A DNA stretch of 63,768 bases, the filler included, from an uncultured Methanosarcinales archaeon (GTDB taxonomy: Archaea > Nanobdellota > Nanobdellia > Woesearchaeales > CAYMBN01), in NCBI GenBank assembly GCA_964388715.1. It is 4 parts of 3 records of this genome, joined end to end, with 100 filler letters (N's around TTAATTAATTAA, not from the genome) between each part and the next. Parts side by side here need not be neighbours in the genome. Positions count along the whole stretch, not along the records: positions 13,062 to 44,501 come from CAYMBN010000002.1; 3 more parts are not named here. One strand, given 5' to 3'. A program made the position numbers. Of this stretch, positions 33,001 through 39,000 are shown piece after piece (positions within the stretch are counted from its first letter, which is position 1; each line of letters starts with the position of its first letter).

Positions 33001-36000
33001 GATAAAACTGATAAACCAATTGCCAAGTTTGAGTACAAGAGGCATTTTTTTGTTTAATTTTCTGTATCCAAGGACAATATTACAATCTTTTAATGCTTCT
33101 AAAAATTTAGGAATTTCTTTTGGATCATGTTGTCCATCTGCATCTAGGGATATTATAATTTCTGCACCTTTTTTAATAGCAAAGTCACAACCTGTTTTTA
33201 ATGCAGCACCTTTTCCTAGATTAACAATATGGCCTAAAACAATAACACCTGTTTTTTTTGCTGTTAAGTATGTGTTATCACTTGAACCATCATCAACAAT
33301 AATAATGTTTTTACAATATTTTTTTGTTTTTTTAATTACTTTTTCAATGTTTTTGCTTTCATTGTATGCAGGTATAATAATATAGGTGTTTTTTTGCATT
33401 TTTTATTATTAAGTTTTGATTATTGATTTTTATTCTTATGATTCTCTTTTATCAAATAGTTTTATGATGTGATAACCAAATTGTGTTTTTACTGGTTCAG
33501 AAACTTCATTTATTTTAAGATCAAATGCTACATCTTCAAATGGTTTTACCATCTGTCCTTTTCTAAACCAACCAAGATCACCACCATTAGGAGCTGAAGG
33601 TCCTTCTGAGTATTCTTTGGCAATTTCTGCAAAATTAGTTTTATTTATTTTTTCAGAGATATTATTAATTAATTCTAATGCTTCCTCATCTGAATGTGTG
33701 TCTGTTGTTATTAAGATATGGCTTGCTTTTATTTCTTCAACTGGTTTTTTTGTGAATAAATCACGTGATTCACCAGGTTCCCAGTTAACCTTGTAAGTGT
33801 ATATCATTCCTCCTGTAACTTGTGCTTTTGAGGTTAATGGTCTGAAATGTTTTAATCCATGACCTTGGTAAAAGAATAATTTTGTAAACATACTATTTGC
33901 AAGCTCAGGTGCACTTAGTATGACATAATATCTTTCTCCATCAGGTACAAAAATTATTGAAAAACCTAATTTACTATTTTCAAACTTGGTTTCTTTTACT
34001 TGATCTTTTTCAACATAAACTAATGAAGTAGGGTATAATCTTTCATTGTTTTGTCCAATGATTTCAATGTCATGATTTGTTAGGTCAATCTTCATTGGAA
34101 TGTTTCCACCACCTAAACATTGGGCAGTGTTTGCTTGGACTTGGCAGTAATTTCTTCCGGAAAGATAACCTGGCCAACCTGATACCCATTGATCTGCTTT
34201 TTTATCTTGGATGTCATAATAAAATTTGTCAGCTTGTAGTTGATCTAAACCAAAATCATTGACAAGGGTTTCAACGCCTTCTTCATAATCAAGTTTTCTA
34301 ACTGTTTGCCATATTTTAGCTCTTTTGAAATCCCAGCTTCCAAAATGTCCCCATACACCTGCTTTACCAATCATATCTTCAGATGCAATATAATATTGAT
34401 CAATTAAATCTTCACAGTGTGTTACTTTTAACACATCTTCAATGTCTTGATTGTTAAGACCTTGTTCTTGTAATGTTTCTCTTGCTTGTTCTTTATCTTG
34501 AAGTATGATTTTATTTAGGATATCAATTGCCTTAACTGTATCACCATTTAATTTTTCTTCTAAGACATGTGGTGGTTTTTCTTGGCCGCAATTTAACATT
34601 CTTAAAATTCCAACAGCTTGTTCTTCATTATCTGTTAATAAGCTTTTACCAACCCAATGTATTCTTTCACCTTGATCAGCTCCATCAAATGTAACTCTTC
34701 TTTCTGATATTGCAACAAACCAGTGTCCAAAATCCCACCATGATGTTGTGATACCATCTGTAGAATTGTCTTTTATTGCTGTTAAGCTTTCATACCATGC
34801 ATCGTTCATGCTAGGTACTTCACTTTTAGCAACATTATGTGCTGCTTTTAATGGATTTAAAAGTAATAGTGCTAACAAAATTATAATTACAGTTTTTGTT
34901 ATTCTTGAATCAATTTTTAATTCTTTTGAGATCCATTTGCTTGCATATTGGTAAATAATACCTAGACCAACCCCAAAAGCCACTGCAAATGCAGGTACCA
35001 TTAATATGGCAAATCTCATACCTTTTGTAAATCCATAAGCTGTTCCAATAAACCAAATTGTTAAGAAAATTGCGTATTTTACATCTCTTTTTCCATGTAC
35101 ATCTTTTCTCATTATTGTTAAGATTACCCCAATCACAGCAAGTAAAAATAGAAACTTTCCTCCCATTTGCGACATGATTGCTGATAGTGGGACAGCGTTA
35201 AATTCAGCTACTGTTGTTAATACATTTGGCCATAAAGTTGTTACTGCTACTTCTTTAAGAATTATAACGCTAAGTGGACCTTTAAATGCTAAAAAAAACA
35301 TTTTATATCCACTAAATAAAAGTACAAATATTGATGAAGATATAAAAAAAGTAGCTGCAACATATATTGAATTTTTTACAGTTGATTGAATTAAGCTTTT
35401 GTGTATTATTATTTGATATAATATAAATATTACAATAGTAGCTAACACAAAATCAAAAACATACCACCATCCTCCCCATGCTTTACTGAAAAGTCCTACA
35501 GCAAGTCCTGATAAACTTGCATATATCATTTGCTTTTTAAGATTTTTTGATTCAAATGCTTCTAAGAATAACCATCCAATTAATAGTGGAAATAAAATAT
35601 TGTAAGCGTCTGTGTCAGAGAATCCTGCAGGTGTTCTTGATAATAGTGCAGAGTTGATTGCAATAATCATTGCTGCGAAGAAACCTCCTACATTGCCTCC
35701 AACTCTTTTACCAATAAGAAATGCAGGGATTATTGATAGTCCTATAATTATTACTGGTATAAGAAAAAATACGGCCATCAATGATGCATCTTTATTAAAC
35801 ATGCTTACAAATTTATATAAATATGCTCCAAATAAAGAATGAAGTTTTATAGAAGGCATTTGTCTTCCTTCTCTACCATTTCTTAAAAAATTAATATCTT
35901 TATCATCAACAACTTCAGTTCCAAAGTGTCCTTTTGTAAGATAATTTCTTGTTTCTCCATACCATAAGTAAGGGTCAATAGCAAGTAGGTAAGTATTTCC

Positions 36001-39000
36001 ATCATTATCTTGTAACCTTGATTTAAATTGATCAGAAGTATATTCTATTTGTTGTTTCATTTGATCTTTTTGTTGTTTTAATACTTCTTGAAATTGACTT
36101 TCAATTAAACTAGCTTTGTTTGCATCAGGTAAGTTTGGATATTGTTGATTTATTTGTGTACTTACTTGAGATCTTAAAAAACTATTTACACTACTTTCAG
36201 CCCAATTGTCTGTTACAGGTAAATAGACAGGGTATACTCTGAAAAAAGTTGAAAAGAAAATGGCTATAATTATACAGAGAACAGGTAATGCCCATTTTTT
36301 ACTTTTTAAGAATTCTGATGTTGTTTTAGTAATGTTTTTGAAATCAATTGAGATATCTTCTTCATCTTTGAATATTTCTTTTGTTCTTGATTTTTCTTTA
36401 GTTTTAAATCCTTTAAACCATTTTTTTACTTTAGAAAAATCAATTGAAATTTCCTCTTCATTTTGTGATTGGTCTTCTTGGAAGATTTTCAGTCTTTCCT
36501 TATCTTTTTGTTCTTGTTCTTTAACTTTTTCTTTAGTAGTATCAAGTTGTTCTTCTTGTTTTTCAATATTTTTTATTATCTTTTTTTCTTCTTTTATTTT
36601 TTCTTTTAATTCCTTTTTAACTTGTTCTATATCTTGCATGATTTTTTTATCCTTTTCTTGTTCTTTTTTAGTAAAAGTGTTAAATTTAGGTTTAGTTGAT
36701 TGTTTTTCTTCAACATTTTGGTTTTTTTGTTTAATTTTTGGTTGTTTTTTCTTTGTAAACCACGATTTAATTTTATTAAAATCTATTGTAATTTCCTCTT
36801 CATCTTTATGATTATTATCCTCTAACACATTAATCTACCCCCTAATTATAATATGTTTTAAGAAAACCTGTTTGATTTATAAATTTTTATATAAAATACC
36901 TTAAAAATCCTAAAAATTTAGGTTCCTTTAGAATCATCTTTAAAGCAATATTTGATGCATGTTCTCTGTCTTTGGTTGATAATATTGATTTAATCTTATC
37001 TTGTGATGTTAATTTTATTAATTTATCATAATCTTTATTACTAAATTTGTTAAGTATCTTTCTCATTAAAAGGTGTACATGTAGATCTTTACCTATTTTC
37101 TTTTTCCACAGTTTTTGATAATCTTTTCCTGTTTTGATTGATTTGATTAATTGTTGGGCAGCTATCATTCCTGGAATTATTCCCCCTCCTGTTGTTGCTT
37201 TTACCATTGTCGCTGCATCACCAAGCAAATGTACTTTTACATTACCTGCTTTAGTTTGTGTTTTTATTTTTGGATTATATATTGGAATTAGTCCTGCCTG
37301 ATAATCTAGAACTTTACATTTGTATGCTCTTTTTTTAAGGAATGAGTAAAAAAGTTTTCTTGTATTTTTGTAGTTAGCTAATCCTATCCTTACTATTTTG
37401 TTGTTTTCAGGAACCATCCACGCATAGCCTTTATTGATAGGATAATATTCCAAAATATCAGAACTATTTTTTAGCTTAACTCTTGCTTGTATACCCAACA
37501 TGAATCTTCTTTTTGTAAACAAATTACATGATTTAGCAACTTGACTTAGTGGCCCATCTGTCCCAACTAAGTGACTAACTTTAATAGATTTTTTGTTAAG
37601 GAATCTGATATATGATCTATCTGTTGAAAGATATTTGTGATTTAAGCAAAATTTAGCCCCATTTTCACGTGCTTTTTTAGCAAGATAGTTATCAAACCTT
37701 GTTCTGTCTAGAACAAGATTATAAGGCTTTAATTTGATTTTAACAGAATTCTTGTTTGGAGAGATGATTTTTGCTATTTTTATTTTATTGACGACAAATT
37801 CGTCCCTGATAGGTAAGATTTTTGATAAAAAATTGGTTGTTAAACCAGTGCATTGAACAGGTGTACCAATCTGTTTATGTTCTTCATAAACATTCACATT
37901 GTATCCATTTTTAGAAATAAGATATGCTAAATAATTTCCAACAGGACCAGCTCCTATTATGGCTATCATTTATTTTTTTCTCTTATGCTTTTTTTTGTAT
38001 TTTTCTTTCTTTTATGTTTCCTTAATTTTTTAGTTTTTTTATTTGTTTTGCTTTTCTTGTTTTTTTGTATGAAAAAGAGAATTAAAGCTAATAATATAAT
38101 AATTGTTGTGATTACATAATAAAAATATTTCATTAATTCTTTTTGTTTACTTGTTATGATAACATCAAAATCTTCTGTAATGGTTAGGTTCCCTGATTTA
38201 AGGATAAGTTTTACAGGATAGTTTTTTGATTGTGTACTTAAACTAGGGTTAACAACTAATGAAAGGATTTTTGTTTCTTCTGGTTTAAGGGAAATATTTT
38301 TTTCTTTAATGCTTATGAAGTCGTCAGAACGTAGTGCAGTAAGATATTCAATTTCTTGATTTGTTTTACTTGTTAATTGAAGATTAACTGTTTGTGTTTC
38401 ATAATAATTCTTGATTTTTGGAATATCAAATATTATCTTTGGACATTTTTCAGAAGGAAGTACTGTTAAATAAAATACGTCTCTTGAAATAGTATTATCT
38501 CCTGTAGCTGTAACACTTAGTTCATATTTTCCTACTTTGTTTGGTTTAACTTTCATGTCTGTTGCAAATTGTTTATTTGTTTCTATTCCAAAGGTTTTTT
38601 TCCAATCTAGATCAGCCCATTCTGGAGCATCTAAACTTAGATTGAAAAATTGTGTTTTTGCACCAAAATTATCAACTGTGAAACCATATCTTTTAAGATT
38701 GTTTATACAAATCTTATCTTCTTTTTTATCAAAATTAAGCTTTAAATCATGACATTTAACAATTTTTAATGTGATATCTTTTGATTTTGGAAAAGATGCT
38801 ATGTTTGTTACTGTGACTAATTTTGTGTTAAATTCTCCAACTGAGTTTTCTGGTGGATTAATCTCAAAAGTAATTGTTTGTTCTTGATCTTTTTCTAGTT
38901 CACTTGTATTTTTGGTTTGAGTTAACCATTCTGGGTTTTCTAGAGTAATAATATAGGAGTTTTTGGTTTCAGCAAGATTTTTTATTATTATATCAATGTT

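What a model noticed while it worked through the whole genome (the two positions that open the first line are those of the whole stretch)
33436..36828. The oligosaccharyltransferase AglB/STT3 is fused at its extracytoplasmic C-terminus to a parvulin prolyl isomerase
g00320 (1130 aa) joins a complete STT3/AglB oligosaccharyltransferase (Pfam STT3 at residues 273-657 plus the usual C-terminal soluble domain) to a parvulin-type peptidyl-prolyl isomerase domain (residues ~1027-1128). Because the C-terminal domain of AglB faces outward, the fusion would put N-glycosylation and prolyl isomerisation of exported, unfolded proteins in one enzyme. The architecture recurs in a minority of Woesearchaeales/Nanoarchaeota.
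Evidence so far: pfam.tsv: STT3 E 1.6e-46 (273-657), Rotamase_3 E 1.2e-32 (1027-1128), Rotamase E 5e-27; one uninterrupted open frame of 1132 codons. Protein search with residues 1000-1130: among the best 120 clusters of 621-1978 aa, 20 besides the query carry both PF02516 (STT3) and PF13616/PF00639 (parvulin), 963-1253 aa, those with an organism name being 'Nanoarchaeota archaeon'. Whole-protein search of 60 other Woesearchaeales genomes: the STT3 match runs on through the parvulin domain (query end >=1110) in one open frame in 9 (G012, G016, G022, G028, G030, G032, G042, G049, G050); in the others AglB ends near query residue 1017-1080 and parvulins are separate genes. The gene sits in a glycosylation clus [...]
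(Added by a program. Inside this text positions count along the whole contig: they may not be those of the stretch shown here. "Call 12" and the like, gene names such as g00115 and contig names such as C1 are that model's own, and its searches are not shown. The text may have been shortened before it was handed on; [...] marks where a part breaks off. The agent that wrote the report below was given it as the finding of a first reader that could run no searches.)

Follow-up and report, generated by a model that had tools for sequence, protein, structure and literature searches.

The report
Archaeal glycosylation enzyme with built-in foldase
A small uncultured archaeon makes its only protein N-glycosylating enzyme (AglB/STT3) as one chain with an outward-facing prolyl isomerase, and relatives carry an unrelated prolyl isomerase at the same spot, which suggests that sugar attachment and folding of exported proteins are physically coupled there.

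Summary
Window 33436-36828 (- strand) is one open frame of 1130 codons. It encodes a cytoplasmic K/E-rich tail (1-176), a 13-helix STT3/AglB membrane domain (177-669), the external AglB domain with WWDFG (670-1014), a short linker, and a parvulin prolyl isomerase (1031-1130). Catalytic residues of both enzymes are conserved. It is the only STT3 gene in a 96%-complete 1.3-Mb genome and lies in a glycosylation cluster.

The fusion is not an artefact. In 400 genomes of the same order I count 25 AglB-parvulin fusions. I also count 38 AglB-FKBP fusions at the same C-terminal place, an unrelated isomerase family. Together that is 63 of 400, in 33 GTDB families, and no family has both types.

On the AglB tree, fused and unfused forms interleave, so gain, loss or swap has been frequent. 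The fused parvulin groups with membrane-anchored PrsA/SurA-like parvulins, not with the small cytoplasmic ones.

Coupling of glycosylation and folding is inferred, not shown. I found no paper describing the fusion. This scan has reported the same architecture on at least eight other genomes. Closest analogues are MagT1/Ost3/6 in eukaryotic OST and FKBP11 at the OST-A translocon.

The parts
33436..36828 (-). aglB-parvulin fusion gene, 1130 codons plus stop, GTG start
   Evidence: the only STT3 match in the genome
36837..36843 (-). Shine-Dalgarno-like AGGGGGT, 9 nt upstream of the GTG start
   Evidence: read from the sequence
36301..36828 (-). Residues 1-176: cytoplasmic K/E-rich tail, mostly low-confidence or disordered, with one long helix (56-117)
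   Evidence: pLDDT <50 for 1-60 and 111-163
36751..36804 (-). First copy of the N-terminal motif EEEITIDFNKIKSWF (core at residues 13-21)
36409..36462 (-). Second copy of the motif, EEEISIDFSKVKKWF (core at residues 127-135)
36313..36366 (-). Third, degenerate copy, EEDISIDFKNITK (core at residue 159)
34822..36300 (-). Residues 177-669: STT3/AglB membrane domain with 13 predicted TM helices. External loop 1 carries D285, D405/D407 form the second acidic motif, and external loop 5 carries TTVAE (E542)
33787..34821 (-). Residues 670-1014: external C-terminal AglB domain
34726..34740 (-). WWDFG catalytic motif, residues 697-701, invariant in 43 of 43 aligned AglBs
33739..33786 (-). Residues 1015-1030: short linker between the last AglB strand and the parvulin domain
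   Evidence: lower pLDDT in block 1021-1030; distance from the AglB end motif to the catalytic His is 16-36 aa, median 20, in the 16 of 23 fused ORFs where the regexes found both motifs
33439..33738 (-). Residues 1031-1130: parvulin (PpiC-type) prolyl isomerase domain with H1037, D1084, T1115 and H1120
36887..37969 (-). Upstream neighbour: geranylgeranyl reductase family flavoprotein, a candidate polyprenol/dolichol reductase
   Evidence: TIGR02032, 164.2 bits, cut-off 158.8
27045..33399 (-). Downstream glycosylation cluster: GT2 (AglJ/PpgS-like), DUF2304, GT4, GDP-mannose 4,6-dehydratase, LegC/DegT-type aminotransferase, GT2, GT1
37966..43159 (-). Three genes for surface proteins. Two have signal peptides; domains include NPCBM_assoc/CARDB/PKD; one is S-layer-like. 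They are likely AglB clients

Best explanation
The gene encodes the organism's housekeeping N-oligosaccharyltransferase AglB. Its outward-facing C-terminal domain is extended, through a roughly 10-20 residue linker, by a catalytically competent PrsA/SurA-type parvulin prolyl isomerase.

Proposed mechanism:
- Proteins leave the Sec channel unfolded.
- AglB transfers the lipid-linked glycan to N-X-S/T sequons while the chain is still flexible.
- The tethered isomerase, within a few nanometres, catalyses cis/trans isomerisation of X-Pro bonds and may transiently hold the same chain, so folding starts at the site of glycosylation.

Shown: the architecture, residue conservation, side of the membrane by homology and helix count, recurrence, and convergence with FKBP.
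Inferred: PPIase activity, action on AglB's own clients, and any effect on glycosylation efficiency.
For: - One uninterrupted ORF, with both domains above the Pfam cut-offs.
- AglB catalytic elements are invariant in 43 of 43 aligned relatives: D285, D405/D407, E542, R605, WWDFG 697-701.
- Parvulin residues in 32 fused sequences: H1037 32/32, H1120 32/32, T1115 31/32, D1084 as D in 20 and E in 6.
- AlphaFold model: pLDDT 82.6, pTM 0.73, 13 TM helices between 177 and 669, none afterwards.
- Foldseek matches: PglB 5ogl E 5.3e-21, AglB 7e9s E 6.4e-15, and the PrsA/SurA PPIase domains (6xd8 TM 0.82 and 4g2p TM 0.86, normalised to the target, rmsd 2.0-2.7 A).
- It is the only STT3 in a 95.75%-complete genome and lies inside a glycosylation cluster beside signal-peptide surface proteins.
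- Recurrence: 25 parvulin fusions and 38 FKBP fusions in 400 genomes of the order. Pfam confirmed 22 and 19 of these.
- 47 of 48 database hits to an FKBP tail are STT3+FKBP proteins.
- 41 parvulin (including the query) + 19 FKBP among the 120 nearest AglB clusters.
- 29 of the 150 best 50%-identity representatives span the junction.
- Two unrelated PPIase folds sit at the same position.
- The fused parvulin groups with the long free parvulins and not with the ~100-aa cytoplasmic class. In the own genome the long form is membrane-anchored.
- The closest solved sequences are the extracytoplasmic foldases PrsA and SurA.
Against: - There is no experiment of any kind: no activity, topology or substrate data.
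- Fusion state is labile. The query's nearest AglB in the tree (L007/G097, 61% identity) has no PPIase, and on the tree of 69 AglBs at least 23 state changes are needed. The fusion is therefore dispensable.
- 337 of 400 genomes lack either fusion.
- G000 also has a separate membrane-anchored PrsA-like parvulin, so the fused domain is not the only external PPIase.
- I could not read the model's coordinates or inter-domain confidence, so I do not know whether the PPIase site faces the AglB peptide site.
- In the human FKBP11/OST-A translocon the authors argue against a nascent-chain isomerase role, because the FKBP11 site is buried (PMC12804085, passages read).
Confidence: 0.7

Rival explanations
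1. Anchor piggy-backing. The parvulin (or FKBP) is a general external foldase that uses AglB only as a membrane anchor near the export site. It replaces a signal-anchor helix of its own and has no specific link to glycosylation.
For: Free long parvulins are common in the order, and the one I inspected (own genome, 442 aa) has an N-terminal signal anchor. The fused domains fall among these long forms in the domain tree. Fusions are gained, lost or swapped often. 11 of 23 parvulin-fusion genomes have no other detectable parvulin, as expected if the fused copy does the general job.
Against: Two unrelated PPIase families both chose AglB, and both at its C-terminus. Among the 120 nearest AglB clusters, the only other families listed beside STT3 were the related PF13231 and one PF11992. 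Complementarity is weak: a free long parvulin is present in 12 of 23 fused and 19 of 27 unfused genomes. G000 has both forms.
Confidence: 0.2
2. Non-catalytic holdase or regulator. The PPIase fold serves as a peptide-binding module that keeps clients unfolded, or selects them, so that sequons stay accessible. This would resemble MagT1/Ost3/6, which delay disulfide formation, or FKBP11, which acts as an adaptor at the OST-A translocon.
For: Eukaryotic precedents: MagT1 oxidoreductase is an OST subunit needed for cysteine-proximal sites (PMC4137057, search listing and start of abstract only). FKBP11 sits beside OST-A with its ligand site buried (PMC12804085, passages). From general knowledge, parvulin domains of SurA/PpiD can act as chaperone modules.
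Against: The catalytic His pair and Thr are kept in 31-32 of 32 fused parvulins. The FKBP core motifs (YxG, FDSS, vI.GF, Y.G, L.F) are kept in at least 17 of 19 fused FKBPs at the capitalised consensus positions. That argues for retained catalysis. The two roles do not exclude each other.
Confidence: 0.1
3. Artefact: a frameshift, a chimeric assembly, or a missed stop joins two separate genes.
For: None found. The genome is a 31-contig draft.
Against: The same junction lies in one frame in 22 Pfam-confirmed genomes, in 20 further database clusters, and in 29 of the best 150 representatives at 50% identity. The exact protein is on 2 contigs in the public collection (P0002).
Confidence: 0.01

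Closest known systems
Single-subunit oligosaccharyltransferases AglB / PglB / STT3 (GT-C fold; A. fulgidus AglB-L 3wak/7e9s, C. lari PglB 3rce/5ogl)
   Same: 13-TM domain plus external C-terminal domain. Acidic motifs in external loop 1, TIXE-type motif in external loop 5, and WWDxG. The whole-model Foldseek matches are at E 5e-21 to 6e-15.
   Different: A C-terminal PPIase domain. A ~176-aa charged cytoplasmic N-tail with repeated I[ST]IDFxK[IV]K motifs. A conserved three-helix insertion in external loop 1. None of the listed solved OST matches has a PPIase domain named in its title.
PrsA (Firmicutes lipoprotein foldase) and SurA/PpiD (periplasmic parvulin chaperones)
   Same: The parvulin domain is 45-50% identical to PrsA PPIase domains (6xd8 E 3e-20; TM 0.82). 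It is extracytoplasmic and tethered to the membrane.
   Different: It lacks the N- and C-terminal chaperone domain of PrsA/SurA. The NCBIfam PrsA and SurA models score far below their cut-offs (81 vs 361 bits; 64 vs 394). The anchor is an enzyme rather than a lipid or a signal anchor.
Thioredoxin-like OST subunits Ost3p/Ost6p and MagT1/TUSC3
   Same: A folding catalyst is built into the OST so that folding and glycosylation of the same chain are coordinated (PMC4137057, listing and abstract start only).
   Different: Those are separate subunits of a eukaryotic multi-subunit OST. They do thiol-disulfide chemistry, not prolyl isomerisation. They are not covalent fusions to the catalytic subunit.
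FKBP11 at the human Sec61-OST-A secretory translocon (PDB 9n9j; PMC12804085)
   Same: A membrane-tethered PPIase-fold protein sits on the lumenal/external side next to STT3A.
   Different: The association is non-covalent, depends on the ribosome and is substrate-specific. The authors propose an adaptor role with the FKBP site buried. There is no evidence of common descent with the archaeal fusions.
AglB-FKBP fusions of the same archaeal order (e.g. L014 = G340; P0122-P0169)
   Same: The same AglB subfamily, the same C-terminal attachment point, and tails of similar length (108-162 aa).
   Different: The isomerase fold is unrelated (PF00254). They occur in other GTDB families: 14 families, none shared with the 19 parvulin-fusion families.

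Membership tests
AglB/STT3 oligosaccharyltransferase (GT66) | STT3 membrane domain, GT-C fold with 13 TM helices | tested here: met
   Pfam STT3 E 2.1e-45. The model has 13 hydrophobic helices at 177-669. Foldseek finds PglB, AglB and STT3 at probability 1.00.
AglB/STT3 oligosaccharyltransferase (GT66) | Acidic metal/acceptor-binding motifs in external loop 1 and after it (DxD-type), and the TIXE/SVSE motif in external loop 5 | tested here: met
   D285 (AIDPY), D405 and D407 (SDTD), and T538-T539-V540-A541-E542 are invariant in 43 of 43 sequences. Assigning them to the named motifs rests on recalled literature.
AglB/STT3 oligosaccharyltransferase (GT66) | WWDxG motif in the external C-terminal domain | tested here: met
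   WWDFG at 697-701, invariant.
AglB/STT3 oligosaccharyltransferase (GT66) | DK or MI motif that forms the Ser/Thr pocket | tested here: inconclusive
   D818, M819 and K822 are invariant, but the spacing is DxxxK and I did not map it onto a solved structure.
AglB/STT3 oligosaccharyltransferase (GT66) | Transfer of a lipid-linked glycan to Asn of N-X-S/T | not testable with these tools
   Indirect support only: sole STT3 in the genome and the surrounding glycosylation cluster.
NCBIfam archaeo_STT3 (TIGR04154, archaeosortase-A-associated AglB) | Score at or above the curated cut-off | tested here: not met
   67.7 bits against a cut-off of 450. It is not a member of that subfamily.
Parvulin (PpiC-type) PPIase | Rotamase domain above the family cut-off, and a parvulin fold | tested here: met
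   Rotamase_3 109.2 bits (cut-off 22.5) and Rotamase 91 bits. Matches to 6xd8, 4g2p and 1zk6 at target-normalised TM 0.82-0.86, rmsd 2.0-2.7 A.
Parvulin (PpiC-type) PPIase | Active-site His pair, Asp/Cys, and Thr/Ser | tested here: met
   H1037 and H1120 32/32, T1115 31/32, D1084 D/E in 26/32. Which residues are catalytic is recalled from Pin1/Par14 literature.
Parvulin (PpiC-type) PPIase | Prolyl cis/trans isomerase activity | not testable with these tools
   Needs an enzyme assay.
PrsA / SurA foldases | Parvulin inserted in, or flanked by, the N/C chaperone domain; equivalog score | tested here: not met
   Only the PPIase part aligns. PrsA scores 81.4 vs 361 and SurA 63.8 vs 394. It works like a tethered PrsA PPIase domain but is not a PrsA.
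Extracytoplasmic location of the PPIase | Same side as the WWDxG domain, with no further membrane pass | tested here: met
   No hydrophobic segment after residue 667-669. An odd number (13) of TM helices follows a Lys-rich tail. This is a prediction only, with no experimental topology.

The most novel reading that the evidence does not exclude
The fusion marks an archaeal 'exit-site machine' that arose independently of the eukaryotic one. In this reading AglB is docked at the Sec translocon or ribosome through its conserved cytoplasmic I[ST]IDFxK[IV]K repeats, glycosylates chains as they emerge, and uses the tethered PPIase as part of the glycosylation cycle itself. The PPIase would isomerise X-Pro bonds next to sequons so that otherwise refractory sites can enter the AglB groove, and would then release the chain to fold. 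PPIase type (parvulin or FKBP) would be interchangeable because only the chemistry matters.
Probability: 0.12. Interest if true: 0.85.

Novelty: new variant of a known kind. Interest (0 to 1): 0.64.

Why it matters
Whether and how N-glycosylation is coordinated with folding outside the cytoplasm is known mainly from the multi-subunit eukaryotic OST: thioredoxin-like subunits, and translocon-associated factors such as FKBP11.

Here nature has joined a single-subunit OST covalently to a prolyl isomerase, and has done so with two unrelated isomerase folds. That is strong comparative evidence that keeping a folding catalyst at the glycosylation site is useful.

It also gives a one-polypeptide system in which the coupling can be tested: wild type versus truncated versus PPIase-dead. 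For DPANN archaea, which have tiny genomes and surface-dependent lifestyles, it points to surface-protein maturation as a function under selection. For glyco-engineering it suggests OST-foldase chimeras.

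Tried and rejected
- **Coordinate offset.** Adding 13061 to the coordinates gives unrelated genes. 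The finding's coordinates are already window coordinates.
- **Fused parvulin replacing the free membrane-anchored parvulin.** Not supported. A free long parvulin is present in 12 of 23 fusion genomes and 19 of 27 unfused comparison genomes. The comparison genomes were my own choice and are related to each other.
- **Single origin of the parvulin fusion.** Undecided. The free tree scatters 11 of 23 fused domains among free long parvulins with weak support. The AU test does not reject one clade for 22 fused rows (L032 left out as a long branch): p 0.189.
- **N-terminal motif elsewhere in the own genome.** Two regexes over six frames found it only in aglB.
- **Fusions outside the order.** In a phylum-level sample of 400 genomes, all matches in open frames over 650 aa at E <= 1e-22 were 'same order'. 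The single match from outside the order (G502, same class) is in a 348-aa frame. I cannot say how many of the 400 lay outside the order, and a junction-specific query at this threshold could miss distant fusions.
- **RNA families in 32000-38500.** None.
- **Antisense ORF 36260-36811 (+).** It is an S/F/L-rich mirror of the K/E-rich region and I take it as spurious.
- **Geometry of the PPIase site relative to the AglB peptide groove.** Not obtained, because model coordinates and inter-domain confidence are not available to scripts.
- **DiGuilio et al. 2024 (PMC11617091).** Not held. I know it only from the reference list of PMC12804085.
- **Sequon density of the neighbouring surface proteins.** Unremarkable, 0.24-1.17 per 100 aa.
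- **Literature searches.** Nothing on the fusion: AglB+parvulin 0 papers; oligosaccharyltransferase+peptidyl-prolyl+fusion+archaea 3 unrelated; AglB+FKBP 1 unrelated; AglB+DPANN 17, with none pointing to it in the 15 listed titles and abstract starts; STT3+Woesearchaeota 2 unrelated. The 2024 review PMC11407970 contains no 'isomerase', 'fused', 'fusion', 'chaperone' or 'folding'.

Full report
**1. What is there**

The stated coordinates are window coordinates. An ORF of 1130 codons runs from 36828 to 33436 on the - strand and starts with GTG. The translation has no stop. A GGGGG run lies 9 nt before the GTG, and an A/T-rich stretch lies further upstream.

Pfam finds:
- STT3 at 273-657, E 2.1e-45
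- a sub-threshold STT3/PglB/AglB core match at 693-834
- parvulin models at 1027-1128: Rotamase_3 E 2.3e-31, Rotamase E 9.9e-26

No NCBIfam model reaches its cut-off. PrsA scores 81 bits against 361, and archaeo_STT3 68 against 450. No Rfam family matches the region. The 183-codon ORF on the opposite strand (36260-36811) is an S/F/L-rich mirror of the K/E-rich coding region.

**2. Anatomy**

Hydropathy and an AlphaFold model built on an alignment of 43 relatives (mean pLDDT 82.6, pTM 0.73) give five parts.

- **Residues 1-176.** A Lys/Glu-rich tail, mostly low confidence, with one long helix.
- **Residues 177-669.** Thirteen hydrophobic helices. External loop 1 carries a conserved three-helix insertion (205-270) before the AIDPY motif.
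- **Residues 670-1014.** The mixed alpha/beta external domain, with WWDFG at 697-701.
- **Residues 1015-1030.** A linker.
- **Residues 1031-1130.** A parvulin fold.

The '270-aa extension' is therefore a ~176-aa cytoplasmic tail plus TM1 plus a loop insertion. Pfam's local match simply starts late.

No hydrophobic segment follows residue 669. With 13 helices after a Lys-rich tail, the parvulin is predicted to lie on the same, outer side as the WWDFG domain.

Foldseek places the model with:
- PglB (5ogl, E 5.3e-21)
- A. fulgidus AglB (7e9s, E 6.4e-15)
- yeast and human STT3

The last domain matches the PrsA and SurA PPIase domains (target-normalised TM 0.82-0.86, rmsd 2.0-2.7 A). By sequence, the nearest solved chains are PrsA (6xd8, E 3e-20), the archaeal parvulin 2m08 and SurA.

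**3. Are both enzymes intact?**

In the 43-sequence alignment, D285, D405, D407, E542 (in TTVAE), R605, WWDFG and D818/M819/K822 are invariant.

In the 32 fused rows:
- H1037 and H1120 are 32/32
- T1115 is 31/32
- position 1084 is D in 20 and E in 6
- the hydrophobic pocket residues L1085, F1097 and F1117 are invariant

Naming these as the catalytic residues rests on recalled OST and Pin1/Par14 literature.

**4. Genomic setting**

The genome (G000: 1.30 Mb, 31 contigs, 95.75% complete) has one STT3 match, which is this gene. It has three parvulin domains:
- this one
- a 93-aa cytoplasmic-type protein
- a 442-aa protein with an N-terminal signal anchor, a PrsA/SurA-like body and a C-terminal CxxC region

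On the - strand, downstream of aglB, lie GT2 (AglJ/PpgS-like), DUF2304, GT4, GDP-mannose 4,6-dehydratase (above the equivalog cut-off), a LegC/DegT-type aminotransferase, GT2 and GT1. Directly upstream is a geranylgeranyl-reductase-family flavoprotein (TIGR02032, above cut-off). Beyond it are three surface-protein genes. Two of them have signal peptides and one is S-layer-like.

**5. Recurrence of the parvulin fusion**

- Residues 990-1130 found 20 clusters with STT3+parvulin among the best 120, besides the query.
- A search of 1.84 billion 50%-identity representatives with residues 900-1130 gave 29 hits, among the best 150, whose single aligned stretch spans the junction.
- In 400 genomes of the same order, 378 of 401 (G000 included) have an AglB match.
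- A junction-plus-parvulin query, together, identifies 25 genomes with the fusion. Pfam confirmed 22 of them. G152, G144 and G129 are cut by contig ends.

**6. A second isomerase at the same place**

While scanning the 29 best AglB ORFs with Pfam, I found that L014 (G340) ends in an FKBP_C domain, E 6.2e-19. Following this up:

- 47 of 48 database proteins of 639-2034 aa that match this tail carry STT3+FKBP_C. Their source names are Woesearchaeota, Nanoarchaeota or Nanoarchaeia.
- In the same 400 genomes, the FKBP match lies in open frames of 880 aa or more in 38 genomes.
- Pfam confirmed 19 of these. Ten more adjoin the AglB match. Nine rest on frame length alone.
- The FKBP core motifs are conserved in the 19 fused domains.

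Together, 63 of 400 genomes have an AglB-PPIase fusion. By the family codes, parvulin fusions fall in 19 GTDB families and FKBP fusions in 14, with no family in both lists.

Among the 120 clusters nearest to the external AglB domain (residues 680-1015), I count 41 with parvulin (the query included), 19 with FKBP and 60 with neither. No cyclophilin or thioredoxin family is listed (counted by reading the table).

None of the fusion genomes is among those flagged unpublished. The one statement that rests on an unpublished genome is this: G205 has the AglB most similar to the query (64% identity), and Pfam finds no PPIase domain in it.

**7. Evolution**

I built a maximum-likelihood tree of the AglB part only (query residues 176-1014). 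It has 69 rows: 23 parvulin, 19 FKBP and 27 unfused. L006 was left out. The rows are the 29 best hits plus fused and unfused genomes that I picked, so the proportions are not frequencies.

Results:
- The tree needs at least 23 changes of state.
- Well-supported branches alone force at least 9 changes for parvulin and 5 for FKBP.
- The labels are still more clustered than in shuffles (0 of 200 as low).
- The query's sister is an unfused AglB (L007, 61% identity).

In a tree of parvulin domains (23 fused, 20 free 'long', 20 free 'short'):
- 19 of 20 short cytoplasmic-type domains form one group.
- The fused domains lie with the long ones.
- 12 fused domains, the query included, form a supported clade.

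An AU test does not reject a single clade of 22 fused domains, p 0.189. So the data fit one old fusion with many losses, or several captures. Both remain open.

The fusion does not simply replace the free long parvulin, which is present in 12 of 23 fusion genomes and 19 of 27 unfused genomes.

The distance from the end of AglB to the catalytic His is 16-36 residues, median 20, in the 16 of 23 fused ORFs where the regexes found both motifs. Unfused AglBs end 2-92 residues after the same motif, often in acidic low-complexity tails.

**8. How it most likely works**

Shown by computation:
- one chain
- two intact active sites
- the same predicted side of the membrane
- a short tether
- convergent recruitment of two PPIase folds
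- a glycosylation and surface-protein neighbourhood

Inferred: exported chains are glycosylated while unfolded. The tethered isomerase then acts on the same chains, catalysing the slow X-Pro isomerisation and perhaps holding them briefly. Folding thus begins where glycosylation ends, in a compartment without ATP-driven chaperones.

Rivals:
- The PPIase only borrows AglB as an anchor.
- The domain acts as a non-catalytic holdase or regulator.

These cannot be excluded without experiments.

**9. Comparison with what is known**

The protein is a member of the AglB/STT3 family and carries a genuine parvulin domain. It is not a PrsA or SurA.

There are two functional analogues.
- **The thioredoxin-like OST subunits.** MagT1 is needed for cysteine-proximal sites (PMC4137057; I saw the search listing and the start of the abstract only).
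- **FKBP11.** This membrane-anchored FKBP sits beside OST-A at the human secretory translocon. Its authors, however, favour an adaptor role (PMC12804085; passages read; PDB 9n9j appeared among my structural matches).

I found no paper that describes an OST-PPIase fusion (the review was checked). Subscription journals and bioRxiv supplements were not searchable.

The scan itself has reported the same architecture on at least eight other genomes, mostly the FKBP form, with the same reading. I had found the FKBP fusions myself before looking at those notes.

**10. Verdict**

This is a real, conserved and apparently undescribed variant of a well-known enzyme. The mechanism is plausible but untested.

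Noticed in passing
window 36313-36804 (- strand), and loci L007-L074: The cytoplasmic N-tail of AglB carries 1-5 copies of a short motif, I[ST]IDFxK[IV]K, often followed by xWF/FF. It occurs in 34 of 69 AglBs of the order, whether fused or not. In the own genome two regexes find it only in aglB. Its function is unknown; it could be a docking or membrane-binding element.
   Followed up: partly
L014:1072-4557 (-), L045-L062, P0122-P0169: AglB-FKBP fusions at the same C-terminal position: 38 of 400 genomes of the order, in GTDB families other than those with the parvulin fusions.
   Followed up: yes
L004:862-2190 (+) = G000:C4: The own genome also encodes a 442-aa protein with a signal anchor and a PrsA/SurA-like body. 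Its C-terminal region has a WCxxC motif, so it may combine PPIase and thiol-oxidoreductase functions.
   Followed up: partly
window 36887-37969 (-): A geranylgeranyl-reductase-family flavoprotein lies directly upstream of aglB (TIGR02032 above its cut-off). It is a candidate for saturating the dolichol carrier rather than membrane lipids.
   Followed up: no
window 45661-47181 (+): A 506-aa ORF has weak matches to both the small (102-313) and large (363-486) primase subunits, possibly a fused PriS-PriL primase. The E-values are only 1e-5 and 1.6e-4, below the cut-offs.
   Followed up: no
window 44735-45196 (+): A 153-aa ORF matches only the C-terminal half of deoxyhypusine synthase (profile positions 155-287 of 288). 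It begins shortly after N runs at 44501-44601. It is probably cut by a gap rather than truly split.
   Followed up: no
G017:C1 (L066) and G144:C23: Two genomes of the same GTDB genus (g18) differ in state. G017's AglB ends right after the W-x-V-x-W motif. G144 has the parvulin junction in a contig-cut frame. This hints at a very recent gain or loss, or at non-orthologous copies.
   Followed up: no
window 21236-25063 (+): A B12-binding radical SAM enzyme, a SAM methyltransferase and a flavin amine-oxidase-like gene sit next to a GT2, on the strand opposite to the glycosylation cluster. They may modify the glycan or the lipid.
   Followed up: no
window 36260-36811 (+): A 183-codon antisense ORF inside the K/E-rich part of aglB. 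It is S/F/L-rich low complexity, and I take it as spurious.
   Followed up: yes
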